Below, in pieces: positions 4,132-27,811 of a DNA stretch of 59,226 nucleotides; position 1 is the stretch's first letter; every line of letters starts with the position of its first letter. The stretch covers positions 1 to 59,226 of the forward strand of contig JAFURS010000044.1 in assembly GCA_017471805.1 (NCBI GenBank). The letters run 5' to 3'. The DNA comes from Alphaproteobacteria bacterium (GTDB lineage: Bacteria; Pseudomonadota; Alphaproteobacteria; Rs-D84). The notes beneath the pieces were generated by a model, which saw only the letters and a program-made list of their open reading frames with translations, was not told the origin of the DNA and did not search any database. The translations under genes were made by a program, and so were the position numbers.

Positions 4132-4590
4132 CTATTTATATTCATCCCAATCAGGTCCAACATCACAATCCGACAGGTCAATCGTTAATTCACGACCGTC
4201 ATCCGACACAGGACACGTTAAAATGCCAGTCGTTGTTGCCTGGTCTGCGTCACGGGTGGCGTTGCGATACGCAAACTTGATTTCAGTCGGCGCCGCAACA
4301 CACGCAATGTGTAAATCATTATCAGTCGTGCCATCGGGACCAACCCAAACACGAACACCATAGCCCAATCCATAACACGGAAAACCGTCCAGATAATATA
4401 AAACCAGGCCACGACCAACTAATTTTTTATCAGAAATAAATTTTCCATTATATTCATTCAACGTCAGGCCAGTCACAGCCTGCCAGTCGGTGCTGGTAGA
4501 AAAGATGCTGATTCTGGGGGACGGGGCGTCCGCCGCATTCCCAGACGACACGGCAAGCGTTAAAAAAATTAAAGCAATCAGTTTTTTCAT
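4132..4590 (-). CDS. Small secreted protein, unknown function (152 aa)
   Basis: It has a Sec signal peptide (MKKLIALIFLTLAVSSGNA|AD) and four Cys. Its start overlaps the upstream gene's stop by 4 nt (4587-4590). It is the last gene of the prepilin-like operon. Confidence 0.6.
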   Translation of the reverse strand: MKKLIALIFLTLAVSSGNAADAPSPRISIFSTSTDWQAVTGLTLNEYNGKFISDKKLVGRGLVLYYLDGFPCYGLGYGVRVWVGPDGTTDNDLHIACVAAPTEIKFAYRNATRDADQATTTGILTCPVSDDGRELTIDLSDCDVGPDWDEYK

Positions 4591-5120
4591 TCTTGGTCCC
4601 CCTGGGGCAGTTGTAATTCAGACAAGTGTGCAGAAATCTTTTTTACACCCGCCGGTTGCGCCGATAGCATATGCGAAAAATTAACACTGGCCCCGGAATC
4701 CAACAATGTAGCAGATGGTAAAAACTTCTGCTGAGCCAACACACGACCGTCTTGGTCGGTGGACACAATTATCAGGTCGGGAACCCCATAAATCTCGTCC
4801 GAGATGTTCGTCACAGAACCAGATACAACCAAGTGCTGAACACCCGCTTCGTCAGTTATCGTTTCAACCCCAGATACAGATGCAACCAATGGACCACGAC
4901 TGACCGTCTTTGCCTGGTGGTGGGTGATGACCGCAACCGTAAATATTAGCGCAGACAGCAATGCACAAAGAGATGCAAAAAACATCAGCCACGAATTTTT
5001 ACGTGGTGGCGCAGATACAACCCAAGTGTTGCCACAAACAGCACACTTAACCGCAGAATTTGGACGTTCGTCCAGTGTATATTCTGTTTCACAAAAATCA
5101 CATTTTATTTTCATATTCAC
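4587..5120 (-). CDS. MJ0042-type zinc-ribbon membrane protein with DUF3426-like C-terminal domain
   Basis: The N-terminus CDFCETEY...CAVCGNTW is a CxxC...CxxC zinc ribbon. One TM helix (WLMFFASLCALLSALIFTVAVI) is followed by a beta-rich periplasmic domain resembling DUF3426. Confidence 0.65.
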   Translation of the reverse strand: MNMKIKCDFCETEYTLDERPNSAVKCAVCGNTWVVSAPPRKNSWLMFFASLCALLSALIFTVAVITHHQAKTVSRGPLVASVSGVETITDEAGVQHLVVSGSVTNISDEIYGVPDLIIVSTDQDGRVLAQQKFLPSATLLDSGASVNFSHMLSAQPAGVKKISAHLSELQLPQGDQE

Positions 5121-5134
5121 ACTTATACCATATT

Positions 5135-6451
5135 TTATTCTAAATTCAACAGCCGATATTTTTCCGATACACGGGTCTGAATTTCACGTATTGCGTTCAT
5201 ATAGTCCGCAACCGTGGCGTTCTTGTTCGCAGATACAGAACCAAATATCTGGCCGGAAATTGTTGATTTGTCGCCTTCGCTTATCATCGCAAGGGTCGCC
5301 ATACGATTTAACTCGACAAACGATGCGTCAACAAAATTTGCACGGCTTGATGACGCATCCCAATAATAGTCGGCGTTCACAGAATCTTCGATACGGTCAT
5401 ATACAACCAGACGTGGGGTCATAGAACCTGTAAATCCAACAGAAACAAACATTGCGTCAATTCGGCCCGCCGTTATATCAAGTGCCTGGTTGATTTTTAA
5501 TAGCGCAAGGTCGTCTTTGGCACTGACCGACAGGCCGCCCAGCGTCAAATTCGAAACCCATAAATTCTTGGCCGTCAGGGACGACATTTTTCCTAAATCT
5601 AATAGAGTTAACTGGCCCGACACTTCTAGATTCTTGGCATCAGACGACAACATACCCGCAACAGTTGCAGATGTAGCAGTAAAGCCGTTGCTGATTGCAG
5701 GTCGGTTTGTAAATATCATATCTGTGGATACAGATTCCTTGACCGACAGGCCGTCTGTAAATTCGGCATAGTCCGAATTAAAATACTTTACATTAACCAG
5801 GTCGTGACCACCCAGATTTAGCGCAGACATCATTTTCGCATCGTCTGGATTGTTTGACGGAACACGCCATAAATATAATGCACTGTCACGATTTACAGCC
5901 GTCGTTTCTATAATCGCATTATCCAGGTCAACCCCCATATCAACCGTGTCTGTGTGCCAGGCCCCAAATGTCCCATAGGCGTGCGTGCCGTCAACAAAGC
6001 CCATTGTGCCACCTGATAAATTTACAATTTCACGTGTTCGAAGTGGTGTTATATCTTCGGATGCACGGACAACAACCCCTTGCAAGGTTGATGCGCCGGT
6101 CGAATCCGCAGACTTTAAAATACGCAGTTGATATTTTTCATCGCCCTGGGATAAAACAGATTCAGGCACACCGTATTCAGCCAAGTCTGATAAACTTACA
6201 CGGGTTATGTTGCGACCAACGGTTCGTAATAACTCGGGCCGGTTCGCAATTATATAACGTTCCAGTGCAACCTGAATTTCGGTCATCTGGTTGGCAATTG
6301 CAATATTCTGGGCCCGTATAACCGCCGCCTGTTGATAGCGGAATACATATGGTATTATCAGTGCCGCCAGCGCAACACTTAACAATAACTCAACCAGCAT
6401 ACTGCCGGATGTTGAATTTTTATTTGCAAAGATTTTTGTTCGATTCTTCAA
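5135..6451 (-). CDS. Giant prepilin-like protein (438 aa), class III signal peptide
   Basis: The N-terminus is MKNRTKIFANKNSTSG|SMLVELLLSVALAALIIPYVF, with Glu at +5 after the Gly and a roughly 20-residue hydrophobic helix. It shares its leader and N-terminal half with ORF 6471-7703. Confidence 0.65.
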   Translation of the reverse strand: MKNRTKIFANKNSTSGSMLVELLLSVALAALIIPYVFRYQQAAVIRAQNIAIANQMTEIQVALERYIIANRPELLRTVGRNITRVSLSDLAEYGVPESVLSQGDEKYQLRILKSADSTGASTLQGVVVRASEDITPLRTREIVNLSGGTMGFVDGTHAYGTFGAWHTDTVDMGVDLDNAIIETTAVNRDSALYLWRVPSNNPDDAKMMSALNLGGHDLVNVKYFNSDYAEFTDGLSVKESVSTDMIFTNRPAISNGFTATSATVAGMLSSDAKNLEVSGQLTLLDLGKMSSLTAKNLWVSNLTLGGLSVSAKDDLALLKINQALDITAGRIDAMFVSVGFTGSMTPRLVVYDRIEDSVNADYYWDASSSRANFVDASFVELNRMATLAMISEGDKSTISGQIFGSVSANKNATVADYMNAIREIQTRVSEKYRLLNLE

Positions 6452-6470: not shown

Positions 6471-7703
6471 TTATTGCGGCAAAACCGATTGGATTGTATT
6501 TGGTGCCGATATTGTTTCTTGCCAGCCGGAACGCATTAGTGGACCAAACGCATTGCGTGATGGCATTGACGGTGTTTCGGCACGTGATAATGTGAACTTG
6601 GAAAACTGGGGCGGCTTGGTCGATGGAAATACCCATTTGCCTATCTTGATAGGCGACGTGGTTGACATTAACAATTCCCCAGATACGGTTAATCCAAAAT
6701 TTTCATAGAATATCATTTCTTCGGCAGATATAAATGGCGCAATCACAGAATTTACAGCCACACCTGTAAAACCACTGATTGTGTTTGATGTGTCAGATTT
6801 CAAAACCAGATTATTACCAATGTTTATTTTATCTGTTATTGAAACACGGTCCGATATAACACGCCCAAATGTCGTAAATTTATTGCCGTCGTTTATACGG
6901 GCAGAACGGACATTTCGGAACCCAGACATATCGCCCGATACACGCAAATCACCAAAGGCCACATCCTGGCCGTCGATGTTCGCCCCAGATGAAAAATAAA
7001 TCGTATCTGAAAATACATCATCTGCTGTGACAAAGGTTGTGTTCGCATTTTTTATTCGGGCAGAATCTGCAAATATTGTCGCAACGTTATATATATGATG
7101 ATGCGCCATATCCAGGTCACGTTGCATTACGTTTAAGCCATCTTCGCCGGATGTTCCACGATGCAGATATTTAGATGTGTCTTCACCAGAAACATCACGT
7201 GATATACGATATATTAAATCGCCCGAGATAAAATCAGGCGCAGATACCGCCCAGGTATTACCATACGCAACTGAATCATCGCCAACAACCGCCGCATCAC
7301 CACCAATATGACGGGCAATCTTGTTCGCATTTATTTGCGATTTAGACAATTCAAACGCCAGATAAACATCAGTCACAAACGCACCATTTACAGCATACTT
7401 ATCAACAAAACCAGCGGCGGCATCAGGACTGATTGTAGCAAGTTCTGTTTCATCAAGTTTAATCTGGGCAACATCAGGCCACTTGTCCTGATTCATACGA
7501 ATAAAATTCAATACATCATCACGGACAGACATTATATGACGGGCCGTTGTTATATCTGATATCGTCTGATTCGTTAGTGAAATTTGATTATAGACAAACG
7601 GGGCGGCAACCGCAATGATTGCCATCGCCAGTAAAACCTCTAGGATACTGGCACCAGATGAATTGTTATTAAAAATCTTGGACCTAGATACAGTCACTGC
7701 CAC
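6471..7703 (-). CDS. Giant prepilin-like protein (410 aa), class III signal peptide
   Basis: The N-terminus is MAVTVSRSKIFNNNSSG|ASILEVLLAMAIIAVAAPFVYN, with Glu at +5. It contains the shared internal motif YLHRGTSGEDGLNVMQRDLDMAHHHIYNV. Confidence 0.65.
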   Translation of the reverse strand: MAVTVSRSKIFNNNSSGASILEVLLAMAIIAVAAPFVYNQISLTNQTISDITTARHIMSVRDDVLNFIRMNQDKWPDVAQIKLDETELATISPDAAAGFVDKYAVNGAFVTDVYLAFELSKSQINANKIARHIGGDAAVVGDDSVAYGNTWAVSAPDFISGDLIYRISRDVSGEDTSKYLHRGTSGEDGLNVMQRDLDMAHHHIYNVATIFADSARIKNANTTFVTADDVFSDTIYFSSGANIDGQDVAFGDLRVSGDMSGFRNVRSARINDGNKFTTFGRVISDRVSITDKINIGNNLVLKSDTSNTISGFTGVAVNSVIAPFISAEEMIFYENFGLTVSGELLMSTTSPIKIGKWVFPSTKPPQFSKFTLSRAETPSMPSRNAFGPLMRSGWQETISAPNTIQSVLPQ

Positions 7704-9039
7704 CTGCCATTAAACATTGTTTTATATTTATTCGTTTTTCCAGACGCTGCCAATATACATACTGGCATATCAAATATTGCGACAAGGATTGTTTGTTATA
7801 TGCGCCATCATATTTTTTTATTATCGTTTCACACGGTGTTGTTTTAGCATCGTCGGATGACGGCGATTCCAGAATAGAAAATGAATCATTATTTATTCCA
7901 TCCAGCCATATGTCCGGCAACAATGTTGTGCCACCTGGACGTATATCAAGAATTACCGCACCCGAACGCCCCGAACTTAACGCATTAGACGTCTGGTCAC
8001 GAACAGTAATATTTGATGTATAGATTGTTCCAACCTCTATCCCTGATTTTGCACTGTAATCCAGACTTTCGCCGTCGATAAATACGTCCTGGCCACGGGT
8101 GACATTTATAAACGACGACACATCAAGACGCTCAACACTGAAATTTATATGATCAGACACAACATTACCGTGAACAAGCCAATTGCCCGGTCCTGCAAAT
8201 GCGGTATGCCCCGCCGTCATAGATATTTCATACAACGAAACATCGTCGGCGGTAAAATTCCCAGTATCACCAAACGTTGATATCGTGCGAACATTTGCAT
8301 TACCCGTGCGCAACGTGCCACGTGTCAAAGACAAGGCGGATTCGCCATCCCTGCTTTGGAACACTGCCTTGGTCGCAGACATCTTTTTTATTTCATTGCG
8401 GGCATTTTTGCCGGATTCAATACCGGAAATTGTCAAAGTATCAAACTGGGCCGAATTAAATTCGCCACGAACTGCAAACAAATTACCAACACCATTCAAA
8501 CTAAATTTCCCCATATCCAGGTCTGATAAAAAACCACTGTTTTCAAGATTCGGTTCATTGCGACGAACGACGTCTGAATAAATGTCGGTCAATTCAATAC
8601 CAACACGGACATTTTCATCAACTGTATTTGCATAAAAACCAATACGACGAGCCAATTCGGAACGGGCCAATTCAGATAAATCGCCGCCGGTCAATTCCAG
8701 ATACGCAGACACAGACATTGGTGTTTTATGAATAACAAGTGATATATCCTGGCCCAGGGCGGTGCGTGGCACAAACCCCAGCGGCAAACCATATGGTTCA
8801 AGCAAATCAGAAAAATCATCCCCAGACACAATAGTTGTATCATATGGTATGTCACGGGCATTTTCACGAATAAATATACGGGCCGCCGTTTGCGCAACAT
8901 CAACCTGGCGGGTGGCGGAATACATTCGGGCATCAGTTTCACGCCCAACAATATTGCGGGTTAAAAACGGTATAAACGCAAAAATCAACCCCAGGGCCAG
9001 CAAGGCTTGAAGTAAAAAATTTCCACGTTCTGAATACAA
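7684..9039 (-). CDS. Giant prepilin-like protein (451 aa), Gln at +5 (cap/minor-pilin-like)
   Basis: The N-terminus is MYSERG|NFLLQALLALGLIFAFIPFL. It contains the shared internal motif VVRRNEPNLENSGFLSDLDMGKFSLNGVGN and has Cys residues near the C-terminus. It overlaps the next gene by 20 nt. Confidence 0.6.
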   Translation of the reverse strand: MYSERGNFLLQALLALGLIFAFIPFLTRNIVGRETDARMYSATRQVDVAQTAARIFIRENARDIPYDTTIVSGDDFSDLLEPYGLPLGFVPRTALGQDISLVIHKTPMSVSAYLELTGGDLSELARSELARRIGFYANTVDENVRVGIELTDIYSDVVRRNEPNLENSGFLSDLDMGKFSLNGVGNLFAVRGEFNSAQFDTLTISGIESGKNARNEIKKMSATKAVFQSRDGESALSLTRGTLRTGNANVRTISTFGDTGNFTADDVSLYEISMTAGHTAFAGPGNWLVHGNVVSDHINFSVERLDVSSFINVTRGQDVFIDGESLDYSAKSGIEVGTIYTSNITVRDQTSNALSSGRSGAVILDIRPGGTTLLPDIWLDGINNDSFSILESPSSDDAKTTPCETIIKKYDGAYNKQSLSQYLICQYVYWQRLEKRINIKQCLMAGGSDCI

Positions 9040-9593: not shown

Positions 9594-11168
9594 ATGGAAA
9601 ATAATTACACCGTTCTTGCACGCAAATATCGCAGCCAAGATTTCAAATCACTGATTGGACAAGACGTGTTGGTTAAAACACTGACCACTGCAATCAACAC
9701 ATCACGAATTGCACACGCATATATTTTTACAGGTATTCGTGGAACTGGGAAAACCAGCACGGCACGTATCTTGGCCAAGGCATTGAACTGTATGGCCGGC
9801 GACAAGGCGACCGCAACACCGTGTGGCGAATGCGAAAATTGTCGGGCAATTGCCGCAGGACAACATATTGACGTTATGGAAATCGACGCCGCATCACATA
9901 CAGGTGTTGATAATATGCGTGATATTCTGGATGGGGCGCAATACAGACCAACAAACGGACGTTATCGTGTATATATCATCGACGAAGTTCATATGCTGTC
10001 TATTTCCGCATTTAATGCGTTGCTGAAAACACTAGAAGAACCACCTGCACACGTTATATTTATTTTAGCAACAACCGAAATCCGCAAGGTGCCTGTGACA
10101 ATTTTATCACGTTGCCAACGTTTTGACCTGGTGCGGGTGCCGGTTGACACACTAAAAAAACATTTTGCCTGGATTGCAGAACAAGAAAAAATTCAACTGA
10201 CCGATGGGGCAAATGAATTGCTGGCACGGGCCGCAGACGGTTCGGTGCGTGATGGGTTAAGCCTGCTGGACCAGGCAATCGCACAAACCGGTGGTAATGT
10301 TGATGAAAATGCCGTGTTGGATATGCTGAAACGTGCCGACAGGGGTGTCGTTGTTGACTTTATGAAAACACTGTTGTCGGGGGATACCGCCGCCGCACTG
10401 GACAAGGTTGATGAAATATATAATAACGGTGCCGATTTATCTATGTTGTTAACAGATATGATGGAATGGACACACTGGGCAACACGTATGCACCCTGCCC
10501 TGCACGCAGGTGATGTCACAAATTCCCCATACACCGCAGACCAACGTGAACAAATCCAAAATCTTAATGGACGAATTTCATTGAATACACTGTCCAGAAT
10601 CTGGCAGGTTATGGTTGCAGCCGTCCCAGAAATGCAAGCCGCAGGTAATCAAAAACAGTGCTTTGATATGCTGGTCGTGCGTATGATGCATATCGCAGAT
10701 ATGCCGTCAATCCCAGAAATTATCAAACAACAAGAAGCCGCATCACGGGTGCGTGACGTGAAAAATATTTTCGCAGACCGTATGGCCGCATCGCAAAATA
10801 ACCAAACTTCTGCACAACCAGCACAAAAGGTGTTGCGCACAATAAATTCGGGCAGTGAATTGGCGTCTGCGCTGCAAGAAACCAAAGAAATTTTGCTGTA
10901 TTCATATTACAGTGAAAATATTGAAATTGTCGAATTTCAAGACGGCAAAATCAAATACTTTGACCGCAAAGGGGATGTGGATTTCGCACACAAAATCGGG
11001 ACCTGGCTTTATGATAAAACCGGCAAACAATGGGGACTGGAACGTGTGATGGAATCTGTGCATACGCACACAATCAGCGAACAAAAACAAGAAGAGTTAG
11101 AGGCAGACCCATTGGTCGCAAGCGCAATGAACCTGTTTGAAAATGCAGAAATAGTGGGGGTCAAATAA
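9594..11168 (+). CDS. dnaX: DNA polymerase III subunit gamma/tau
   Basis: Motifs are LARKYRSQDFKSLIGQD, the Walker A GIRGTGKTSTARILAK, the Zn module CGECENC, and IIDEVHMLS. The start is placed at the ATG at 9594, after AAAGGAAG. Confidence 0.93.
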   Translation: MENNYTVLARKYRSQDFKSLIGQDVLVKTLTTAINTSRIAHAYIFTGIRGTGKTSTARILAKALNCMAGDKATATPCGECENCRAIAAGQHIDVMEIDAASHTGVDNMRDILDGAQYRPTNGRYRVYIIDEVHMLSISAFNALLKTLEEPPAHVIFILATTEIRKVPVTILSRCQRFDLVRVPVDTLKKHFAWIAEQEKIQLTDGANELLARAADGSVRDGLSLLDQAIAQTGGNVDENAVLDMLKRADRGVVVDFMKTLLSGDTAAALDKVDEIYNNGADLSMLLTDMMEWTHWATRMHPALHAGDVTNSPYTADQREQIQNLNGRISLNTLSRIWQVMVAAVPEMQAAGNQKQCFDMLVVRMMHIADMPSIPEIIKQQEAASRVRDVKNIFADRMAASQNNQTSAQPAQKVLRTINSGSELASALQETKEILLYSYYSENIEIVEFQDGKIKYFDRKGDVDFAHKIGTWLYDKTGKQWGLERVMESVHTHTISEQKQEELEADPLVASAMNLFENAEIVGVK

Positions 11169-11626
11169 TGAAAAATGAATCTGGACGTTCCTTAATCGAA
11201 GTTATAGGTGTTATGGCAATTGCAGGTGTTATGACCGTTGCAAGTCTGGGGATTTACAATATGATTCGCACAAATCAGGTGCGAACAATCGCAGATGCAG
11301 AACTGGAACAAATTGTTCAAAACACAAAACTGTTATTAGAAATGCGTGGCACATACGAAGGTGTTTCAATCGATTATTTGATAAAAGCAGGCGCATTGGA
11401 TTCTGACAAGGCACCATTGGGTGGGGCGGACTGGTCAATCGAATCAAGCGCAGACGGACAGAGTTTTTCAATTAACCTGGTCGAACTGACAACAAGCGAG
11501 TGTGAATATTTTTCTGCAAAGCAACCAAAGTGGGCAACGGCAATTCTGGTCAATGGGTTCGAGATAGGATTAACCGATAACTGCTTTGATTCAAATACAA
11601 ATCAGGTGGCATTTGTCATAGAATAA
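11168..11626 (+). CDS. Type IV pilin-like protein (152 aa)
   Basis: The N-terminus is MKNESG|RSLIEVIGVMAIAGVMTVASLGIYN, with a 6-aa leader and Glu at +5. A C-terminal Cys pair (TSECEYF...DNCF) is typical of a pilin D-region. Its ATG overlaps the dnaX TAA (TAATG). Confidence 0.7.
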   Translation: MKNESGRSLIEVIGVMAIAGVMTVASLGIYNMIRTNQVRTIADAELEQIVQNTKLLLEMRGTYEGVSIDYLIKAGALDSDKAPLGGADWSIESSADGQSFSINLVELTTSECEYFSAKQPKWATAILVNGFEIGLTDNCFDSNTNQVAFVIE

Positions 11627-21247: not shown

Positions 21248-21255
21248 TAAAATAT

Positions 21256-21281
21256 GCGCCCGAATGTGGGCGCTTTTTTTT
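21256..21281 (+). terminator. Intrinsic terminator
   Basis: GCGCCC-loop-GGGCGC is followed by T8. Confidence 0.65.
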
Positions 21282-21298
21282 CACACAAAGGGGATTGT

Positions 21299-22264
21299 AT
21301 GATTTTTGAAAAAAAATGGTTCTTGTATAAAATGAATAAGTTTGCACCCAAGGGATATAAATTTGTTCAAACCGGACCAGACGGACAAATCGCAATGTTC
21401 GCAGAACAATTTATGGGAACACAGGATGCAAAGGGACCGTTTGTGTCGTGCTTTTCATTTGATTTGCTGGATACTGTTTATGGCGGTCTGATGTTGCGCA
21501 GGTCTGCAAAAATAAATCAGGCATACACATTGGGGGATTATATTTATCCAACCGAAATTTCACGTGCGCCCCACTTTGCCCCAGACCAAGAAACCGCCGA
21601 TGCCCAGGACGGAAAATACGAAATTTACAAAACAGTCGTTTCACAACATATTGGCGAACACGGAAAACCATTAGCGTTTTTTATGAAAAAGAACGCTGTC
21701 TTGATGCAGGCATTACAGGACGCAAATCAACCACTGCCAGAATATCTGGCAAAACGTATGAATAATTATGTTAACAAATCAACCTGGTATGCGATTTCAC
21801 GTGTGTTCTCGCAGATGCCAATATGTGATATGAAATACTATCAGAATCTGTTCCGGAAAAAAATGAACGAACTGGGGATAGAAGATAAAAACGATACAAC
21901 ACCTGTTAATAAAATTATTATGGAACGGCGTTTTAATGCACTGGCGGGCGAAATAGAACGGTTGGTGTATGACGTATTGCCAAAACAAGAAAAATCACTG
22001 CAACGGGCAAAAGAAAAAGAACAAACGCCTGAAAAAATTCAAAGTCTGCAAGACCAGGTGAACAACACAAATGAAAAACTGGCAGAATTAAAACGCACAC
22101 AACAAGAAATCTTGCCGGAAATAAATAAACAGCCGGCACGTGAAATTCTGAGTGACCAGTTCTGGCACAAAGGAAAGCCGATCGTGCCAACAATTTCAAA
22201 AAATCCTGTTATGCAAATGATTCAAATGGCCTTGATGCGTCGGCATAGTGTTAAACAAAAATAA
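21299..22264 (+). CDS. Hypothetical protein with C-terminal coiled-coil region
   Basis: It is a long ORF. The start is moved to the ATG after AAGGGGA, because the upstream extension overlaps a terminator hairpin. No family was recognised. Confidence 0.55.
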   Translation: MIFEKKWFLYKMNKFAPKGYKFVQTGPDGQIAMFAEQFMGTQDAKGPFVSCFSFDLLDTVYGGLMLRRSAKINQAYTLGDYIYPTEISRAPHFAPDQETADAQDGKYEIYKTVVSQHIGEHGKPLAFFMKKNAVLMQALQDANQPLPEYLAKRMNNYVNKSTWYAISRVFSQMPICDMKYYQNLFRKKMNELGIEDKNDTTPVNKIIMERRFNALAGEIERLVYDVLPKQEKSLQRAKEKEQTPEKIQSLQDQVNNTNEKLAELKRTQQEILPEINKQPAREILSDQFWHKGKPIVPTISKNPVMQMIQMALMRRHSVKQK

Positions 22265-22997: not shown

Positions 22998-23026
22998 AAA
23001 TCCCCGGGATTTCCGGGGATTTTTTA
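22998..23026. terminator. Bidirectional terminator between convergent genes
   Basis: ATCCCCGG-loop-CCGGGGAT is flanked by an A-rich tract and a T-tract. Confidence 0.65.
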
Positions 23027-23041: not shown

Positions 23042-24112
23042 TTATGTAAGTGCAGATGTAATCTGGTCCTGCATTTGGAATGTCCCCAGAACAACCCAGG
23101 CAATTATCCCAGATACAAGCAAAATCCCCAAACTGTTTAGTGTGTTTGATATTTTTTCCATCTTGCGAACAGATTCGTTCAGATAGTCATTCGCAATTTG
23201 ATTCAAATTTGAATCAAATTCATTCATATCAGCATAAATTGTTAAGTCACCAATTATTTCTTCGTCTGGAAAATTACGACCAATATGCGTCAAGGCAACC
23301 CCAAGATTGTCACCGTTGGCAATATGACGAAGCGCCGCATCAAGAATACTGCGCAGATAACGATTTGCACTGTCGGCCAACATACGCATCGCATCAGGAA
23401 TCGCAACCCCAGAACCAACCATTGCCGCCAATGACATTAACCAACCAACAGATACCTGAATCTTATAAATATTCCACGGGGGCAATTTATCAAAAATTAC
23501 ACGCAGACGTCCCGACCAATTCGCCATACTTAGCCATATTACAGATACAATAACTGCAAAGACAACCAAAAACAGATACCAATACTGAATCGAAAATTCA
23601 GACAGCCATACCAACGACCGGGCGGCACCACGCCACACAACACCGTCACCAGCAATTTCTGCAAGCGGTGGAACAAGGTAAAGGCCAACCATTATAATTA
23701 TTCCAAATGTCAATGCCAGCAAGAACATAGGATAACCAATCGCTGATGACATCGCACGACGAATCCGCTGGGTCCCAGATACAACACGACCAACATTTTC
23801 CAGCGCAATAACCAGATTTGATAAATTACCACTTGTGACCAGTAATGTTTCATTTAATGGAACCCAGCCACGGGTAGCCTCGGAAAAAGTCATACCACGT
23901 TCCAGATTCTGTTGCCATTGGCGCATTACAATCGCAAAGGGTTCGTGCGGTTTTTTGCCATTTTTGGATTCAATCATTTCCAGACGTTCCAAGGCATCTA
24001 TCAGTGTAAAATCATTGCGCAATAATGACGCCAGTTTGCGACATATGGCCATACGCTTTTCCGTGTCCAGTCTGAAAACAAGTTTGGCATACAACAGTTC
24101 AAGTTTATTCAT
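23042..24112 (-). CDS. GspF/PilC-family inner-membrane platform protein (R64 PilR-like position)
   Basis: It is a polytopic membrane protein with the duplicated T2SS-F architecture. Its start overlaps the ATPase stop. Confidence 0.8.
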   Translation of the reverse strand: MNKLELLYAKLVFRLDTEKRMAICRKLASLLRNDFTLIDALERLEMIESKNGKKPHEPFAIVMRQWQQNLERGMTFSEATRGWVPLNETLLVTSGNLSNLVIALENVGRVVSGTQRIRRAMSSAIGYPMFLLALTFGIIIMVGLYLVPPLAEIAGDGVVWRGAARSLVWLSEFSIQYWYLFLVVFAVIVSVIWLSMANWSGRLRVIFDKLPPWNIYKIQVSVGWLMSLAAMVGSGVAIPDAMRMLADSANRYLRSILDAALRHIANGDNLGVALTHIGRNFPDEEIIGDLTIYADMNEFDSNLNQIANDYLNESVRKMEKISNTLNSLGILLVSGIIAWVVLGTFQMQDQITSALT

Positions 24113-24113
24113 A

Positions 24114-25751
24114 CTAATACGCCCCCGGCTGATCAAGTTGGCCGACCCAACGTTCAAGTTCATCAACACTGATTATGCCCTGCAACATTAGCGAGGTGGC
24201 GGCCTCTTTCAACGTGCGACCGTCCATTTCTTCTAACCAATAACGAACGGCACCGTCGGTGTTCCCAGACAGGGCAAGACGTAAAAATTCACTGTTTGTG
24301 ATAATAATTTCCCCTGCCTTGACACGACCAATTGTGCCGGACCCCTTGCAATGAGGGCAACCGGGGCCACGCAGATAAACCTGCGAAATGCCGATTTCGC
24401 CATACGCATCCATTACACGACGATATGCGCCACGTTCAGGATGATTCGACAAAGGTTCACGACAATGCGGACAGACCTTTTTGAACAGGCGCATAGACAC
24501 CAAACCACGCATCAAGGTTTCTTCTTTTAACTTAAAAGATTCAACCCCCAGGTCAAGCAGACGGGTCAAGGCCGCCATAGCAGAATTTGCGTGCAGAGTT
24601 GTCCAAACATTATGACCAGACAATGCGCCACGGACCGTTAATTCCGCCGCAGCCAATGTGCGAATTTCGCCAACCATCAAGGTGTCAGGGTCACTGCGCA
24701 AGGCGGCGGCCAGTGCTTCGACATATTTTTCTTCACGTTGTTCTTCGCTGGTGGTGTTGACCACAGGCATTTGACGGGCGCCAAAAATCTTTTGTTCTAC
24801 GGGATTTTCAACCGTTATCATATTTATTTCGTAATTATGTTCCTTTAACATCAGGGACATATTGCGGACAAGTGTTGTTGATTTACCAGAACTGGTGGGA
24901 CCCGCCACAATTACCAGACCGGTTGGAAATGAACGCAGGCGTGCCAATAAACGCTGTTCATAGGGGCCAAATTCTTGTTCTGTCTTGATACCTTCGGACG
25001 GATTGTCATACAGCAGGCGCATAACCGCATAACGTGTTCCAAATGCAATCGGATTAAACTGCATACGGACCGCCAATACACCCGACGGCAGATATAAATC
25101 CTTGGTCCCACGCAGGGGGGTGCGACCGTCTTTCTGGGCAGACTGATATTCATTAACGGCATAGTTGACATTTGATATATCAGATGACGCAAATGCAGCA
25201 CGTAAAAATGTCTCGCCCCAGTGGGTGTTGTATTCCATAACAGGTTGCATACTGCCGTCAATACGAAAGAATATTGTTGTTTGGTCGGCAACCTCGATAT
25301 GAATATCTGATACCTTTTGAGATGCAGCCTTGGCAATTATGTCAACAAAGTCTTTTTGCATCTGGTTGTCAAAGTCAGAACGATTGCTACCACCAGAACC
25401 AATATGCATTTCATTTGATTTGTATATGTTTGAAATCAGCCCCAGGTCAGAATAAAATGGCGAACGCATCCGACGACCACGACGACGCAATAATTCTAAA
25501 AATGATAACACACGGCCGTCATAGCGGTGCGTGCGTGATATTATTATTTCCCCACCAGAAAAATACGCAATCAGATTCTGGGTGTCACGGGGCAATTCAA
25601 GAACAGAACCCGTCGCCGTCAAAAGACGATTCCCATTAGAAAACAGATAGTCGATTATGTCCTTGGATTCAGAATTTTCCAGACCCGCCGGAATAGACGG
25701 CTGGTCAGTAATGTCAACAAATTCTGAATTTTCTGATTTCGTGCGCACCAT
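24114..25751 (-). CDS. GspE/PilB-family type II/IV secretion ATPase (R64 PilQ-like position)
   Basis: It has the Walker A GPTSSGKSTT, the Walker B region DTLMVGEIR, the His box GHNVWTTLHAN, and the tetracysteine CPHC...CPHC. Confidence 0.9.
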   Translation of the reverse strand: MVRTKSENSEFVDITDQPSIPAGLENSESKDIIDYLFSNGNRLLTATGSVLELPRDTQNLIAYFSGGEIIISRTHRYDGRVLSFLELLRRRGRRMRSPFYSDLGLISNIYKSNEMHIGSGGSNRSDFDNQMQKDFVDIIAKAASQKVSDIHIEVADQTTIFFRIDGSMQPVMEYNTHWGETFLRAAFASSDISNVNYAVNEYQSAQKDGRTPLRGTKDLYLPSGVLAVRMQFNPIAFGTRYAVMRLLYDNPSEGIKTEQEFGPYEQRLLARLRSFPTGLVIVAGPTSSGKSTTLVRNMSLMLKEHNYEINMITVENPVEQKIFGARQMPVVNTTSEEQREEKYVEALAAALRSDPDTLMVGEIRTLAAAELTVRGALSGHNVWTTLHANSAMAALTRLLDLGVESFKLKEETLMRGLVSMRLFKKVCPHCREPLSNHPERGAYRRVMDAYGEIGISQVYLRGPGCPHCKGSGTIGRVKAGEIIITNSEFLRLALSGNTDGAVRYWLEEMDGRTLKEAATSLMLQGIISVDELERWVGQLDQPGAY

Positions 25752-25754
25752 ATT

Positions 25755-26453
25755 TTATTTTCCGTTGCTGATGTTCAAATTCTGGGTTTTGCCATCGGAA
25801 TCTACAAAAACAACCCCGTCGTATAGCGATATAGATTTTACAGTCAAACCATCCAGTGTGCGACCAACACTAATGCGTTTGCTTTGACCGGTTTTCAAAT
25901 CTTCGATTGTTGCTTGTAATTGTGAGCCAGCACCAATAACATTTACCAAACGGTATTTCTTTGTTATATCAGCAGAGGCGTCTTCGTCGTCGTCATCGTC
26001 ATAGGTTTTCGATGATTTAGATGACTTTTTGTCGTCCTCTTCTTCCATTTTTGCCAGCCAGGAATCTTTCTCTTTTTCGATACGGGCGGCTTCGGCTTCT
26101 AGTTTTGCCTTTTGGGTTTCAATTTCCTGTTGCTGTTGTTCGGCACGGCCGGACAGTGTGTCAATTTCCATATGCAACTTAATCTTTTCAGCCGCAAGTC
26201 TGTCCAGTTCCAAATCCAATTGCGCACGTTCTTTTTCCAACTGCATAAGAACTTTTTCCTGTTCCAGGTCGGTTATCTGTTGAAACAAGGAACCGTCAAC
26301 ATCATAATCTGCAACCGCATCGGCAGACGCCTGTTCCAGGTCAATGTCCAAGACTTCTTCTGCGACAACAACATCGGCACAATGACCAACATTTACAACA
26401 GATAAAATGCCACAGAATATTAAACCAATTAAAAATTTGCCGTTATTTTGCAT
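25755..26453 (-). CDS. PilP-like coiled-coil periplasmic protein
   Basis: It has a signal sequence, a long Glu/Gln-rich coiled coil, and an acidic linker (DDDDDED). The C-terminal beta-domain (YRLVNVIGAGSQLQATIEDLKTGQSKRISVGRTLDGLTVKSI) resembles plasmid-type PilP. It is translationally coupled on both sides. Confidence 0.45.
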   Translation of the reverse strand: MQNNGKFLIGLIFCGILSVVNVGHCADVVVAEEVLDIDLEQASADAVADYDVDGSLFQQITDLEQEKVLMQLEKERAQLDLELDRLAAEKIKLHMEIDTLSGRAEQQQQEIETQKAKLEAEAARIEKEKDSWLAKMEEEDDKKSSKSSKTYDDDDDEDASADITKKYRLVNVIGAGSQLQATIEDLKTGQSKRISVGRTLDGLTVKSISLYDGVVFVDSDGKTQNLNISNGK

Positions 26454-27705
26454 AGATTACTACCTCATAGTTCCAAGAACGTGAACGAACGTCCCACGAT
26501 GCCTGCATCAGATAAACGCCGCCAAATTCATCAAATATTTTCATAAACTGGGTTGGGATAAGTTTCGATGTGGCCCCAACTTCGACCACAGGGGTGGTCG
26601 CAATATCAACCCCGTTCGTCAGGGTGTCAATTACAACCTGGGTTTGGACAGGTGTATCAACCGACTGAAACAATGTCGTCACATCACGGACAACAGTGTC
26701 TGGGTCACGCTCGTCCTGGGAAGAATACACGTCCAGGGCCGGCAAGGTCGCACGAACACGCAATGTATCTTCGTCGATTTCTTCGACAAATGATGCCGGC
26801 ATTAAACCAGTTGCAATTTCATAAAATTCGCCAATTGTGCCAAAACTGCGCTGAAATTCAGCAGTGACGTGTGTTTCGCCGCACGTCGCAGAAACCTGAT
26901 TCCAACCAACAATTGGTTGCATTACAAAACCAATTGCCTGATAACACTGGGCGGCACGGTCCGCAACGTTTGGCAACAATTCGTATGGCATAACAATCGG
27001 TTCAGGTGGCAGTGTTTTTTCAATCTGGTATTCCTGGTCCAGTTTCTTGCTGCTTTCTTCGATTTGACGTTTGTATTCAGCAACTAATTCAGGGTCCAGT
27101 TTTGCAACCTGGGGACGTGGGGAAAAGGCCTGACGAATAGAATCGTGAAATATCAACCCTAACACCAGTGCAAATACACCCAACAATATCAAGGACACCA
27201 TACCGGCCCCCAGATAACTTATCGGGCGCAAAACAGCACGTGAACGACCACTTAACAAATCCGACAAATTACGTTCGGCGGCACGGGGCATACCCCACGA
27301 AGATGGCGCAAAAAACGCACCCCAATCAGGAATTTCAGATAATTTTACATATTCGGTGCGGGCGTCCGCTTCGGCATCAAAAACAGAATCTGCCAGAATT
27401 ATGCCATTGCGGGCCGCAACCAGATAATAATTTTGCCCGGTATAAAACACCGCTAAAAATGATGTGTATTCTGAAAAACTTTCCATCACTTCGGCCGCCG
27501 CACTGACCGTGCCAGAACGAACACCATTGCGACGTGACGCCAAACCAACCATACCACGGTATTCGGTGTAAAGGGTTAATTTCTTGTCAATATTCCTGGA
27601 TAAACTGCGGGCATAGGCACGGGACGCAAAACCCGCCCCAATTGGTTGCCACAATAAACCAACTGCGTATTTTTTACGGTTAACTGATATAAAATTATTG
27701 GCCAA
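26443..27705 (-). CDS. Type IVb PilO/PilO2-like bitopic membrane protein
   Basis: The N-terminal motif KKYAVGLLWQP, a single central TM helix, and its position before the PilP-like and ATPase genes support the call. The start is placed at the TTG at 27705, after GAGAGAGAG; the ORF could extend to 27750. Confidence 0.45.
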   Translation of the reverse strand: MANNFISVNRKKYAVGLLWQPIGAGFASRAYARSLSRNIDKKLTLYTEYRGMVGLASRRNGVRSGTVSAAAEVMESFSEYTSFLAVFYTGQNYYLVAARNGIILADSVFDAEADARTEYVKLSEIPDWGAFFAPSSWGMPRAAERNLSDLLSGRSRAVLRPISYLGAGMVSLILLGVFALVLGLIFHDSIRQAFSPRPQVAKLDPELVAEYKRQIEESSKKLDQEYQIEKTLPPEPIVMPYELLPNVADRAAQCYQAIGFVMQPIVGWNQVSATCGETHVTAEFQRSFGTIGEFYEIATGLMPASFVEEIDEDTLRVRATLPALDVYSSQDERDPDTVVRDVTTLFQSVDTPVQTQVVIDTLTNGVDIATTPVVEVGATSKLIPTQFMKIFDEFGGVYLMQASWDVRSRSWNYEVVIYAK

Positions 27706-27738
27706 TGAAACTCTCTCTCGACTGAATATTCTGGTGTA

Positions 27739-27747
27739 ATTATAACA
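27739..27747 (-). promoter_or_regulatory. Extended -10 element (TGTTATAAT) upstream of the PilO-like gene
   Basis: The minus strand reads TGTTATAAT about 35 nt upstream of the proposed TTG start. Confidence 0.35.
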
Positions 27748-27787
27748 CAAAAAATCGAACTAAGGCAAATAATAATAAAAGACTTTA

Positions 27788-27811
27788 TAAAAAAACGCCC
27801 CTTGGGGCGTT
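27788..27811 (-). terminator. Intrinsic terminator after macA-like gene
   Basis: ACGCCC-CTTG-GGGCGT begins 4 nt after the stop and is followed by a T-tract on the minus strand. Confidence 0.65.

What the first reader, a model, noticed from the sequence alone, without database searches (positions are those of the whole stretch)
23042..27750. Stand-alone type IVb (R64/PAPI-1-like) PilO-PilP-ATPase-platform module lacking a secretin, prepilin and peptidase
Seen: four translationally coupled minus-strand genes (11-nt overlap, 3-nt gap, then overlapping stop and start). They encode four products in this order: a bitopic protein with the motif KKYAVGLLWQP and one central TM helix; a signal-bearing coiled-coil protein with a PilP-like C-terminal beta-domain; a GspE/PilB ATPase (GPTSSGKSTT, CPHC...CPHC); and a GspF/PilC platform protein. 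Established: this is the pilO-pilP-pilQ-pilR order of IncI1 R64 thin-pilus and PAPI-1-type pil2 clusters. In those clusters, a secretin lipoprotein gene (pilN) sits upstream and prepilin, transglycosylase, peptidase and pilV genes sit downstream. Here the upstream neighbours are tolC and a macA-like adaptor. The downstream neighbour is a convergent OmpA-type lipoprotein. No secretin-like ORF occurs anywhere in the 59 kb. The pilin candidates are dispersed at 5135-9039 and 11168-11626. Inference: this may be a domesticated and fragmented conjugative-pilus machine in a chromosome otherwise made of housekeeping genes. The outer-membrane conduit is unidentified.
Basis: partly seen in the sequence, partly recalled or inferred. 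Interest (0 to 1): 0.7.

Follow-up and report, generated by a model that had tools for sequence, protein, structure and literature searches.

The report
Scattered type IVb pilus genes, Enterousia
These four genes are the inner-membrane motor of a type IVb pilus in an uncultured, tiny-genome gut bacterium (Candidatus Enterousia). The machine's other parts, including the "missing" outer-membrane pore, are encoded at separate chromosomal sites, so this is a known machine in a new host with an unusual scattered layout.

Summary
Four tightly packed minus-strand genes (23042-27705) encode a PilO2/BfpC-family bitopic protein, a PilP-family protein, a BfpD-type extension ATPase and a BfpE/PilR-type platform protein. 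The order matches the R64, PAPI-1-like and Bosea plasmid clusters.

- Pfam PF06864 and NCBIfam TIGR03021 both hit above their cut-offs.
- The ATPase groups with type IVb ATPases, away from GspE and HofB (100/100 bootstraps).

The organism is Candidatus Enterousia (order Rs-D84, Alphaproteobacteria, genomes under 1 Mb).

- **Conservation:** the four-gene block is present in all 80 species loci fetched, with changing housekeeping neighbours. It is under strong purifying selection (dN/dS 0.05-0.13).
- **tolC-macA adjacency:** this is clade-specific, and a terminator plus a promoter-like site separate it from pilO.
- **Pilin genes:** one small pilin and three PilV-like genes lie in the window. In three species they sit directly next to the block.
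- **Secretin:** none is in the window. Congeners encode a PilN/BfpB-family secretin with a TcpQ/BfpG partner at another housekeeping locus, once on the same contig as pilOPQR.
- **Not found:** a prepilin peptidase or a retraction ATPase.

Verdict: the core of a vertically inherited, multi-locus type IVb pilus. It is a new member of a known kind and of moderate interest.

The parts
26443..27705 (-). pilO2/bfpC-family gene (420 aa, TTG start): cytoplasmic N-domain, one TM helix, periplasmic C-domain
   Evidence: Pfam PAP_PilO PF06864 scores 45 bits, E 8.8e-12, against a 26.7 cut-off. phmmer against Bosea PilO2 gives E 3e-18 and against pUM505 PilO2 3e-8. hhalign against PilO references gives 99.4%. 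NCBI names homologues 'type 4b pilus protein PilO2'. The AF2 model has pLDDT above 90 for residues 240-420.
25755..26453 (-). pilP-family gene (232 aa): signal/anchor helix, a long and nearly invariant helix (about residues 56-143), an acidic linker, and a C-terminal PilP/GspC-HR-like beta domain
   Evidence: NCBIfam TIGR03021 scores 34.8 bits, E 2.9e-8, against a 34.65 cut-off. hhalign against PilP references gives 87.5%. AF2 model. Top Foldseek matches are PilP 2ivw, 2lc4 and 2y4y, and the GspC HR domain of the GspC-GspD complex 3oss_C with TMt 0.69.
24114..25751 (-). Type IVb extension ATPase (545 aa), BfpD/PilQ class, with Walker A, Walker B and His box and two CxxC pairs
   Evidence: Pfam T2SSE E 8e-62. 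Best solved relative is BfpD 8dze at 271 bits, against 154 for GspE and 126-151 for PilB/PilF. NJ tree places it in the type IVb clade in 100/100 bootstraps. Motifs.
23042..24112 (-). Platform protein (356 aa), GspF/PilC superfamily, BfpE/PilR class
   Evidence: Pfam T2SSF E 2.5e-22 with two repeats. phmmer scores: Bosea platform 217 bits, BfpE 193, pUM505 PilR 139, IncI PilR 102; GspF gave no hit to the window protein at E<=0.05 and at most 27 bits in relatives. Start codon.
27739..27768 (-). Promoter-like site upstream of pilO2 (TTGCCT, 18-nt spacer with TG, TATAAT)
   Evidence: Consensus scan, 10 of 12 matches with an extended -10 TG. Function not shown.
27789..27811 (-). Intrinsic-terminator hairpin plus U-run right after the macA stop codon, separating tolC-macA from the pil genes
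   Evidence: Sequence read. RNA fold -17.1 kcal/mol, z -4.1, no shuffle of 200 folds as well.
22998..23022 (.). Bidirectional terminator-like hairpin between the platform gene and the convergent yiaD-like gene
   Evidence: Terminator scan: 10-11 pairs on both strands, with the T-run on the + (yiaD) strand only.
11168..11626 (+). Candidate major pilin (152 aa; MKNESG|RSLIE...), packed as dnaX-pilin-ompA-like
   Evidence: Class III signal sequence read. Weak Pfam hits: N_methyl E 0.003 and PilS E 0.03. hhalign against BfpA gives 92%, E 6.5e-7. In L038, L040 and L047 it sits two genes upstream of pilO2.
7684..9039 (-). PilV-like large minor pilin 3 (451 aa; ...ERG|NFLLQ)
   Evidence: hhalign against PilV references (IncI, pUM505, Bosea) gives 92.4% over the N-terminal 200 residues. 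Conserved as a three-gene block in L038, L040 and L047.
6471..7703 (-). PilV-like large minor pilin 2 (410 aa; ...SSG|ASILE)
   Evidence: Weak Pfam N_methyl hit. hhalign against PilV references gives 62% and against paralogue 1 gives 89.6%.
5135..6451 (-). PilV-like large minor pilin 1 (438 aa; ...STSG|SMLVE), candidate tip adhesin
   Evidence: Pfam Shufflon_N PF04917 E 5.8e-6, 26.5 bits against a 27.5 cut-off. The precomputed Pfam hit is marked 'weak'. hhalign against PilV references gives 96.8%, E 2.3e-10.
4132..5120 (-). Two genes co-conserved downstream of the pilV-like genes: a zinc-ribbon/TM/DUF3426-like protein (4587-5120) and a secreted 152-aa protein (4132-4590). Membership in the system is inferred only.
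   Evidence: Tight spacing with a 4-nt overlap. Same order in L038, L040 and L047. Only weak Pfam hits.

Best explanation
The four genes form one transcription unit. It encodes the inner-membrane assembly core of a type IVb pilus (R64 / PAPI-1 / BFP class) that belongs to the vertically inherited chromosome of Candidatus Enterousia.

Shown:
- The family identity of all four proteins.
- Conservation of the block across the lineage.
- Purifying selection.
- Pilin and PilV-like genes nearby.
- A matching PilN-family secretin with a TcpQ/BfpG-like partner at another locus in congeners.

Inferred mechanism, from what is established for BFP, R64, T4aP and T2SS machines:
1. The hexameric BfpD-type ATPase docks on the cytoplasmic domain of PilO2/BfpC and on the platform protein.
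2. ATP hydrolysis drives the platform to extract processed pilins from the membrane and polymerise them. The 152-aa pilin is the candidate main subunit, and the three roughly 400-450-aa PilV-like proteins would act as tip or priming adhesins.
3. PilP is anchored by its N-terminal helix. It spans the periplasm with a long helix and uses its C-terminal PilP/GspC-HR-type beta domain to engage the N0 domain of the secretin. The fibre exits through that secretin.

No retraction ATPase is seen, so the pilus is probably an adhesive fibre without motor-driven retraction.

The likely role in an organism of under 1 Mb without biosynthetic pathways is attachment to partner cells or host surfaces. This role is inferred, not shown.
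For: - **Family identity:**
- **Gene order:** same as the Bosea pBSY19_1, IncI and pUM505 clusters.
- **Conservation:** 229 relatives were confirmed by tblastn, and the best 80 loci were fetched. The block is in 75-80 of those 80, while the flanks differ.
- **Selection:** dN/dS is 0.045-0.13 for all four genes against L007 and L008.
- **ATPase motifs:** intact in 77/77 relatives.
- **Transcription unit:** promoter-like site and flanking terminators.
- **Pilins:** pilin and PilV-like genes lie in the window, and are contiguous with pilOPQR in L038, L040 and L047.
- **Secretin elsewhere:** a PilN-family secretin (TIGR02520, 242-268 bits) with a TcpQ gene in congeners, once on the same contig as pilOPQR.
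- **PilP fold:** the C-domain matches the secretin-binding PilP and GspC-HR domains.
- **Organism and lifestyle:**
Against: - For this particular genome, the secretin, the TcpQ partner and a prepilin peptidase were not seen. Only 59 kb plus a few kb could be read.
- No A24 peptidase motif occurs anywhere in about 1.7 Mb of Enterousia DNA held.
- The PilP family score is only just above its cut-off.
- PilV1 is just below the Pfam cut-off.
- The pilin assignment rests on weak profile matches.
- The AF2 model of PilO2 is poor in the cytoplasmic domain, and Foldseek gave no significant match.
- Nothing shows that a pilus is made or what it binds.
Confidence: 0.8

Rival explanations
1. This is a secretin-independent machine. 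In this lineage the PilO2-PilP-ATPase-platform core would have lost its secretin and would use another outer-membrane conduit, such as the adjacent MacA-like adaptor and TolC.
For: - tolC and macA lie directly upstream on the same strand.
- No secretin is in the window.
- No macB is adjacent to macA.
Against: - The adjacency exists only in the window clade, in the two non-duplicate loci L007 and L008. Most of the 80 loci have lpxK-lpxC-lipoprotein upstream instead.
- A strong terminator hairpin and a promoter-like site separate macA from pilO2.
- A split MacB (ABC ATPase plus FtsX-type permease) lies at 47184-49155 in the window.
- PilP keeps a secretin-binding-type fold and is under purifying selection.
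- Congeners keep a PilN-family secretin.
Confidence: 0.03
2. This is a recently acquired or decaying remnant of a conjugative plasmid or ICE pil cluster, that is, a mobile-element fragment rather than a working host organelle.
For: - The nearest annotated relatives found here are on plasmids: Bosea pBSY19_1 (36.7% ATPase identity), pUM505 and the IncI and EAF plasmids. The collections searched hold only plasmids, phages and E. coli genomes.
- The block lies between tRNA-Val and tRNA-Cys.
- A VirD4 gene is 4.4 kb away.
Against: - The block is present in all 80 species-level loci, with identity tracking species divergence.
- dN/dS is 0.05-0.13, and the ATPase motifs are intact.
- No integrase, relaxase or att-like direct repeats flank it.
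- GC is only slightly above the surroundings.
Confidence: 0.03
3. The machine works mainly as a secretion or transfer device rather than an adhesive pilus. One version is type II-like export of a soluble factor, as TCP exports TcpF. The other is a mating-pair or contact device serving the chromosomal VirB/VirD4 type IV secretion system, as in R64 and PAPI-1 conjugation.
For: - Type IVb pili of V. cholerae and ETEC secrete partner proteins (abstracts of PMC9565799 and PMC6048534, listed).
- The conjugative type IVb pilus of PAPI-1 is reported to recognise recipient LPS, with binding assayed using a PilV2' fusion (PMC5297154).
- VirD4 is in the window, and genes read by eye as VirB3- and VirB4-like lie 6-8 kb from pilO2 in 16 and 25 of the 80 loci.
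- No retraction ATPase was found.
Against: - No candidate secreted substrate is linked to the block.
- The T4SS genes are not consistently adjacent and are not co-transcribed with it.
- The ATPase lies outside the GspE clade.
- These roles would add to pilus assembly rather than replace it.
Confidence: 0.12

Closest known systems
PAPI-1 / pKLC102-type conjugative type IVb pilus (pil2 cluster; read here on P. aeruginosa plasmid pUM505, L092)
   Same: - Same core order: PilO2, PilP, ATPase, platform.
- TcpQ-domain protein plus PilN secretin, a PilV-type large minor pilin, and no prepilin peptidase annotated in the pUM505 cluster.
- ATPase 253 bits, platform 139 bits, PilO2 E 3e-8.
   Different: - pUM505 has one contiguous 10-gene operon on a conjugative element, including a PilT-like second ATPase and PilM.
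- Here the genes sit in at least four separate chromosomal blocks among housekeeping genes.
- No second ATPase or PilM was found, there are three PilV paralogues, and PilP carries a long extra helix.
IncI1 R64 thin pilus (read here on an IncI plasmid, L088)
   Same: - pilN-O-P-Q-R-S-(T-U)-V order.
- PF06864 PilO, TIGR03021 PilP and a Shufflon_N-type PilV N-terminal region.
   Different: - More distant in sequence than BFP or Bosea: ATPase 143 bits, platform 102 bits.
- R64-type plasmids carry a shufflon with the Rci recombinase, a lytic transglycosylase and their own peptidase. None of these was found here.
Bundle-forming pilus of enteropathogenic E. coli (bfp operon, pMAR2, L091)
   Same: - Closest solved ATPase is BfpD, 271 bits over nearly the full length.
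- BfpE 193 bits.
- BfpC matches Enterousia PilO2 proteins, E 9e-10 in relatives.
- BfpB and BfpG match the congener secretin and TcpQ-like proteins, E 4.5e-36 and 7.6e-16.
- The pilin candidate matches BfpA by hhalign at 92%.
   Different: - BFP has BfpU rather than PilP. It also has a retraction ATPase BfpF, peptidase BfpP, transglycosylase BfpH and small minor pilins BfpIJK, all in one plasmid operon.
- None of those extra genes was found here.
Type IVb cluster on Bosea sp. RAC05 plasmid pBSY19_1 (Alphaproteobacteria, L087)
   Same: - Best match in the annotated collections: ATPase 36.7% identity over 99% of its length, 310 bits; platform 217 bits; PilO2 65 bits.
- Same order: TcpQ, secretin, PilO2, a long PilP-position protein (no detectable sequence similarity to the window PilP), ATPase, platform, then PilV.
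   Different: - Contiguous cluster beside a replication-initiator gene and a topoisomerase III gene, with a second ATPase.
- The Enterousia genes are chromosomal, dispersed and lineage-wide.
Type II secretion system (Gsp/Etp) and type IVa pilus (HofB/PilB)
   Same: Same superfamily of ATPase and platform protein, and the same logic of an inner-membrane platform coupled to a secretin through a PilP/GspC-type domain.
   Different: - The ATPase is excluded from the GspE/HofB clade.
- GspD, GspC, GspL, GspM and GspG gave no hits, and GspF gave none to the window protein.
- NCBIfam GspE and PilB scores are far below their cut-offs.

Membership tests
Type IVb pilus system (T4bP; BFP/TCP/R64 class as modelled by Denise et al. 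2019, PMC6668835) | Extension ATPase of the T4bP clade, distinct from GspE, PilB and TadA | tested here: met
   BfpD scores 271 bits against 154 for GspE. The NJ clade with BfpD, Bosea, pUM505 PilQ and IncI PilQ has 100/100 support. The TadA-family model scores 31 bits against a 373 cut-off.
Type IVb pilus system (T4bP) | Polytopic platform protein (PilC/GspF superfamily) of the BfpE/PilR type | tested here: met
   PF00482 with two repeats. BfpE 193 bits and Bosea 217 bits; GspF gave no hit to the window protein at E<=0.05.
Type IVb pilus system (T4bP) | Pilin(s) with a class III signal peptide | tested here: met
   Four ORFs in the window, outside the stated coordinates, have G|xxxxE/Q N-termini. 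hhalign to BfpA gives 92% and to PilV 96.8%. The Pfam hits are weak.
Type IVb pilus system (T4bP) | Outer-membrane secretin of the PilN/BfpB family | tested here: inconclusive
   Absent from the 59-kb window. Present in congeners (L065, L089, L090, L097, L098) and in a distant relative (L096), where the best family is TIGR02520 at 242-268 bits against a 287.65 cut-off. The rest of this genome could not be read.
Type IVb pilus system (T4bP) | Prepilin peptidase (A24 family) | tested here: not met
   BfpP, the IncI PilU-position ORF and the pO157 A24 peptidase gave no significant hit. No G.GD[VAIFLMY]K motif occurs in the window or in any held Enterousia locus. It may lie elsewhere in the genome; no peptidase is annotated in the pUM505 (PAPI-1-like) cluster.
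R64 / PAPI-1 subtype of T4bP ('Tfpb R64 thin pilus variant', Lassaux et al. 2014, PMC3984277) | PilO2 (PF06864) bitopic protein next to PilP (TIGR03021), in the order pilO-pilP-ATPase-platform | tested here: met
   PF06864 scores 45 bits against 26.7. TIGR03021 scores 34.8 against 34.65, which is marginal. The order matches. The actin-like N-domain fold reported for PilO2Bp and BfpC could not be confirmed, because pLDDT is below 50 for residues 1-65.
R64 / PAPI-1 subtype of T4bP | PilV-type large minor pilin (Shufflon_N constant region) | tested here: inconclusive
   PF04917 scores 26.5 bits, just below the 27.5 cut-off. hhalign gives 96.8% for paralogue 1, 92.4% for paralogue 3 and 62% for paralogue 2.
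R64 / PAPI-1 subtype of T4bP | Carried on a conjugative plasmid or ICE as one contiguous operon; shufflon with Rci recombinase (R64 only) | tested here: not met
   The genes are chromosomal, lineage-wide and split into blocks among housekeeping genes. No recombinase, relaxase or att repeats were found. This is a typical feature of the subtype, not a mechanistic one.
Type II secretion system | GspE-clade ATPase with GspC/L/M, a GspD secretin and GspG-K pseudopilins | tested here: not met
   TIGR02533 scores 214 bits against a 630 cut-off. The ATPase is excluded from the GspE clade. GspC, D, G, L and M gave no hits.
MacAB-TolC tripartite efflux pump (as a functional partner of the pil genes) | Co-transcription or conserved linkage of macA/tolC with the pil block | tested here: not met
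   A terminator and a promoter-like site lie between them. The linkage is seen only in L007 and L008. Split MacB genes lie at 47184-49155.

The most novel reading that the evidence does not exclude
The type IVb pilus, with its three PilV-like adhesin paralogues, may be the organelle by which Enterousia and the other Rs-D84 bacteria physically latch onto partner cells. These are uncultured, have genomes under 1 Mb and lack most biosynthesis. The target could be bacteria, recognised through LPS as the PAPI-1 pilus does, or protists or host mucosa. The pilus might cooperate with the chromosomal VirB/VirD4 type IV secretion system. That would make it a conjugation-type pilus turned into a core, lineage-defining tool of an epibiotic or parasitic lifestyle, parallel to the type IV pili of Patescibacteria.
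Probability: 0.3. Interest if true: 0.65.

Novelty: new member of a known kind. Interest (0 to 1): 0.4.

Why it matters
- **Known context of type IVb pili.** The characterised examples are mostly single operons on plasmids or islands of Gamma- and Betaproteobacteria (own knowledge; PMC6668835 says they were described only in Gammaproteobacteria before that study). Here the same machine is a conserved part of the core chromosome of a whole lineage of reduced-genome gut Alphaproteobacteria.
- **Gap in the literature.** The one genomic description of this lineage in the library does not attribute pili to Rs-D84. It could only point to 'hypothetical membrane-bound proteins' as possible means of interacting with other cells (PMC12306168).
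- **What retention implies.** Keeping roughly ten pilus genes under purifying selection in a genome of under 1 Mb suggests the pilus is central to how these uncultured organisms live.
- **What it offers.** It gives concrete targets (the PilV-like proteins, the pilin and the secretin) for finding their partners.
- **A lesson for annotation.** A 'missing secretin' in a local window is not evidence of a secretin-less machine.

Tried and rejected
1. **TolC/MacA as conduit.** Rejected. The adjacency is not conserved, and a terminator and a promoter-like site intervene.
2. **Recent island insertion between the two tRNA genes.** No att-like repeats, integrase or relaxase.
3. **T2SS or Tad identity.** Rejected by scores and by the tree.
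4. **Fold search with the full-length PilO2 model.** No significant PDB match; the top hits are LAGLIDADG nucleases at E about 0.02. The cytoplasmic domain is poorly modelled. This is uninformative, not negative.
5. **The 137-aa lipoprotein 'c4'.** It precedes pilO2 in 63 of 80 species, but shows no similarity to PilM, BfpU, BfpG or BfpL and is not in the window.
6. **Peptidase, transglycosylase and retraction ATPase.** Searches with BfpP, BfpH, BfpF, the IncI PilT- and PilU-position ORFs, the pO157 A24 peptidase and a motif regex found nothing beyond cross-hits to the extension ATPase.
7. **Walking beyond the window edges to find the secretin in this species.**
   - On the left, all metagenome contigs end by or inside the Cys-rich gene next to rluD.
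   - On the right, the 6.5-kb contig adds about 3.8 kb of housekeeping genes.
8. **Linking any database secretin to this exact species.** Not possible.
9. **Subtype placement of the ATPase within T4bP (BFP/Bosea versus R64/PAPI).** Unresolved by NJ bootstrap.

Full report
**1. The observation**

The region 23042-27750 holds four minus-strand ORFs of 435 (longest form), 232, 545 and 375 (longest form) residues.

- At the third junction the sequence reads TAG-T-ATG. With the ATG start the platform gene begins 1 nt after the ATPase stop. That start gives 356 aa, matches the gene calls, and is close to the family median of 357 aa. Only the longer GTG start overlaps.
- The first gene most likely starts at TTG 27705 (420 aa). 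A GAGAGAGAG ribosome-binding stretch precedes it, and this start matches the consensus MANQ.IS.NRKKYAVGL of its homologues.
- Upstream are a MacA-like adaptor and a TolC-family protein. Downstream, convergent, is a YiaD-type OmpA lipoprotein.

**2. Family identity**

- **Protein 1** matches Pfam PAP_PilO (PF06864) at 45 bits against a cut-off of 26.7.
  - It matches the annotated PilO2 of a Bosea plasmid (E 3e-18) and of pUM505 (E 3e-8).
  - A profile of 81 Enterousia sequences aligns to reference PilO proteins with 99.4% probability.
  - BfpC, which Lassaux et al. placed in PF06864 (PMC3984277), matches several Enterousia orthologues at E down to 9e-10.
- **Protein 2** passes NCBIfam TIGR03021 (PilP), but only just: 34.8 bits against 34.65.
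  - Its AlphaFold model (mean pLDDT 78) shows an N-terminal hydrophobic helix, one long helix (residues 56-143, pLDDT above 90), a disordered acidic linker and a small C-terminal beta domain.
  - The best PDB fold matches of that domain are the type IVa PilP proteins (2ivw, 2lc4, 2y4y) and the HR domain of GspC in its complex with the secretin GspD (3oss_C, TM 0.69, rmsd 3.0 Å). Foldseek E-values are modest (3e-3 at best) because the domain is small, but the top meaningful hits all belong to one family.
- **Protein 3** is a T2SSE-family ATPase.
  - Its closest solved relative is BfpD: 271 bits over residues 36-532. GspE scores 154 bits and PilB/PilF 126-151 bits.
  - In a neighbour-joining tree the window ATPase and five Enterousia orthologues group with BfpD, the Bosea ATPase, pUM505 PilQ and IncI PilQ. 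GspE and HofB are excluded in 100 of 100 bootstraps. Relationships inside that clade are unresolved.
  - Walker A (GPTSSGKST), Walker B (DPDTLMVGEIR), the His box and two CxxC pairs are intact. All 77 relatives keep Walker A and both CxxC pairs; Walker B matches in 76 of 77. The Asp box reads ENP rather than EDP in 72 of 77.
- **Protein 4** is a T2SSF-family platform protein. It is closest to the Bosea platform (217 bits) and BfpE (193 bits). GspF gave no hit to the window protein at E<=0.05.

**3. The organism and conservation of the block**

- Identical copies of the ATPase occur on ruminant-gut metagenome contigs.
- A scan of one genome per species confirmed 229 relatives of protein 1 by tblastn. 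All 80 best loci fetched come from uncultured Alphaproteobacteria MAGs. Many are labelled Candidatus Enterousia, and one is a 958,618-bp chromosome record labelled as a circular assembly.
- The genus belongs to the order Rs-D84. Its members have genomes mostly under 1 Mb, lack most biosynthetic pathways and respiration, and are thought to depend on partner cells. The paper describing them reports type IV pili only for another lineage (PMC12306168; taxonomy).
- Clustering the ORFs of the 80 loci shows pilO2-pilP-ATPase-platform in 75-80 of them, always in that order. The flanks change.
  - In most species the upstream genes are a DUF374-like gene, lpxK, lpxC and a small lipoprotein (named by eye from their sequences).
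  - In the window clade (L007, L008) they are tolC-macA.
  - In other species they are der or metG neighbours.
- Against L007 and L008, dN/dS is 0.045-0.13 for all four genes. dS is close to 1, so the values are approximate.
- No att-like repeats, integrase or relaxase flank the block.

The block is an old, vertically inherited, functional part of the chromosome.

**4. tolC and macA are bystanders**

- Immediately after the macA stop codon there is a GC-rich hairpin followed by a U-run: -17.1 kcal/mol, z -4.1.
- A TTGCCT-18-TATAAT promoter-like site with an extended -10 TG lies 34 nt upstream of the pilO2 start.
- A bidirectional terminator-like hairpin follows the platform gene.
- The pump's likely inner-membrane partners, a split MacB (ABC ATPase plus FtsX-type permease), are at 47184-49155.

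**5. The rest of the machine**

*Pilins.* Within the window, four ORFs begin with class III signal sequences.
- The first is a 152-aa protein (11168-11626) packed between dnaX and an OmpA-like lipoprotein gene.
- The other three are consecutive proteins of 451, 410 and 438 aa (9039-5135, minus strand).
- The 438-aa protein hits Pfam Shufflon_N, the constant region of PilV adhesins, at 26.5 bits against a 27.5 cut-off.
- Profile comparison with PilV of IncI, pUM505 and Bosea gives 96.8%, 92.4% and 62% probability for paralogues 1, 3 and 2. The small pilin aligns to BfpA at 92%.
- In three species (L038, L040, L047) the layout is pilV3-V2-V1-(two small genes) on one strand, followed by dnaX-pilin-ompA-skp-pilO2-pilP-ATPase-platform on the other. 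The pilin blocks and the motor block are therefore neighbours there. This supports their belonging to one system.

*Secretin.* None is in the window.
- Five reference secretins found nothing there. A clade-specific HMM found nothing at E<=10.
- The same search did find a secretin fragment at the edge of locus L065, an Enterousia MAG. It lies 9 kb upstream of pilO2 on the same contig.
- Its homologues form 65 protein clusters. Several are named 'type IVB pilus formation R64 PilN family outer membrane protein' by JGI.
- Their best NCBIfam model is TIGR02520 (PilN family) at 242-268 bits. This is slightly under the 287.65 cut-off and far above MshL, PilQ or GspD.
- BfpB and pUM505 PilN match them at E 4.5e-36 and 6.9e-40.
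- On four contigs the gene follows a TcpQ-domain gene (PF10671) and a small ORF (90-100 aa; the L089 copy has a lipoprotein-like N-terminus). BfpG matches the TcpQ-like protein at E 7.6e-16. All of these sit among housekeeping genes: gatCAB, ruvX and sufBD, or lysS. On a fifth contig (L090) and on L065 the secretin sits in a different housekeeping context (S20, plsY; pth upstream in L090), with no TcpQ gene directly upstream in L090.
- These loci carry no second ATPase or platform gene. They therefore complement the pilOPQR block rather than form a separate complete system.
- In BFP, the lipoprotein secretin BfpB and BfpG form the outer-membrane channel (PMC12531336).

*Not found.* No prepilin peptidase, lytic transglycosylase, PilM or retraction ATPase turned up in the window or in about 1.7 Mb of Enterousia DNA held.

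**6. Mechanism**

What is shown is identity, order, conservation, selection and the existence of matching partners. The way it works is inferred from the BFP, R64/PAPI-1, type IVa and type II systems.
1. The ATPase hexamer is held at the membrane by the cytoplasmic domain of PilO2/BfpC and by the platform protein.
2. It powers insertion of processed pilins into a growing fibre, with the large PilV-like proteins presumably at the tip.
3. PilP bridges the periplasm and contacts the secretin N0 domain through its PilP/GspC-HR-type domain.
4. The fibre leaves through the PilN-family secretin stabilised by the TcpQ/BfpG-like protein.

Without a PilT-like ATPase the fibre is probably not actively retracted.

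The PilV2' protein of the PAPI-1 pilus was assayed for LPS binding, and that pilus is reported to recognise the LPS of recipient cells (PMC5297154). By analogy, and given the partner-dependent lifestyle proposed for Rs-D84, the most attractive role is attachment to other cells. This is speculation at present.

**7. Comparison and novelty**

- Every component falls in a known family, and NCBI's pipeline already names some orthologues PilO2 and PilP. In kind, this is a type IVb pilus.
- It differs from the studied examples in several ways:
  - the host is a reduced-genome gut alphaproteobacterium;
  - the genes are in the core chromosome rather than on a mobile element;
  - they are split into at least four blocks that are shuffled among housekeeping genes;
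  - PilV is tripled where the reference clusters read here carry a single pilV gene (with a shufflon recombinase on the IncI plasmid);
  - PilP has a long, almost invariant helix;
  - accessory genes (PilT, PilM, transglycosylase) are apparently absent.
- Multi-locus type IVb systems were already anticipated in the MacSyFinder model of Denise et al. (PMC6668835).

I rate it a new member of a known kind with moderate interest. The main open point is whether this genome also carries the secretin and a peptidase, which I could not test.

Noticed in passing
window 70-3000 (minus strand); also L099 11123-14464, L065 2097-2960, L090 5249-6811: A 976-aa secreted, Cys-rich, Thr/Ser-rich protein with no Pfam match. 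The exact protein is not on record. All four metagenome contigs of this species read here end by or inside this gene, and one carries a longer version of at least 1114 aa. This suggests strain-level variability or repeats. A weakly similar ORF (L065, E 6e-6) and a Cys-rich secreted ORF noted by eye (L090) lie downstream of the secretin gene.
   Followed up: partly
window 9555-12310 (plus strand): The candidate pilin gene is wedged into the dnaX operon. Its ATG overlaps the last base of the dnaX stop codon, and an OmpA-domain lipoprotein gene starts on the base after its stop. The trio dnaX-pilin-ompA is conserved in L038, L040 and L047. Coupling a pilin gene to an essential replication gene is unusual.
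   Followed up: partly
window 25755-26453 (PilP residues 55-130): The predicted long helix of PilP is almost invariant across 46 homologues that are only 65-91% identical overall. It is far more conserved than the beta domain, and R64 PilP (150 aa) is too short to contain it. At about 88 residues it could span much of the periplasm.
   Followed up: partly
window 32154-34409 (minus strand); loci L009, L012, L016, L023 and others at about 500-3800: A chromosomal VirD4-type coupling protein lies 4.4 kb from tolC. In other Enterousia species, genes that look like VirB3 and VirB4 (read by eye, not scanned) lie 6-8 kb upstream of pilO2: clusters c17 and c12, in 16 and 25 of 80 loci. Whether the type IV secretion system and the pilus cooperate is unknown.
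   Followed up: no
L089 9681-11286, L097 8213-9840, L096 6262-7767: In congeners the secretin core is short (374-468 aa, against 552-569 for BfpB and pUM505 PilN). A separate 90-100-aa ORF precedes it; the L089 copy has a lipoprotein-like N-terminus, read by eye. This could mean the lipidated N-terminal (LG-like) part is split off, but L089 has a scaffold gap at that point. Four of the six contigs carrying the secretin end within 600 nt downstream of it.
   Followed up: partly
loci L009-L086, directly upstream of pilO2 (e.g. L009 8245-8652): A 124-137-aa lipoprotein with conserved cysteines ('c4') precedes pilO2 on the same strand in 63 of 80 species. It shows no similarity to PilM, BfpU, BfpG or BfpL (hhalign) or to LptM beyond its signal peptide (Pfam), and it is absent from this window.
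   Followed up: partly
window 24114-25751 (ATPase residues about 284-325): The Walker A reads GPTSSGKST in all 77 relatives, not the usual GPTGSGKST. The Asp box reads ENP rather than EDP in 72 of 77 relatives. The effect on activity is unknown.
   Followed up: partly
window 47184-49155 (minus strand) and 27814-30349: The MacB-type transporter is split into a separate ABC ATPase (244 aa) and an FtsX-type permease (405 aa, family read by eye). It lies 18 kb from its presumed MacA-TolC partners.
   Followed up: no
window 4132-5120 (minus strand): Two genes are always found after the pilV-like genes. One is a zinc-ribbon / single-TM / DUF3426-like protein and the other is a 152-aa secreted protein. 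They may be uncharacterised pilus accessory factors.
   Followed up: partly
window 20892-22264 and 30448-30521: tRNA-Val and tRNA-Cys bracket the segment hyp336-yiaD-pilRQPO-macA-tolC. The 336-aa ORF (21254-22264) has no family match and is only 64% identical in L007, against 85-91% for its neighbours. No repeat evidence for an insertion was found.
   Followed up: partly
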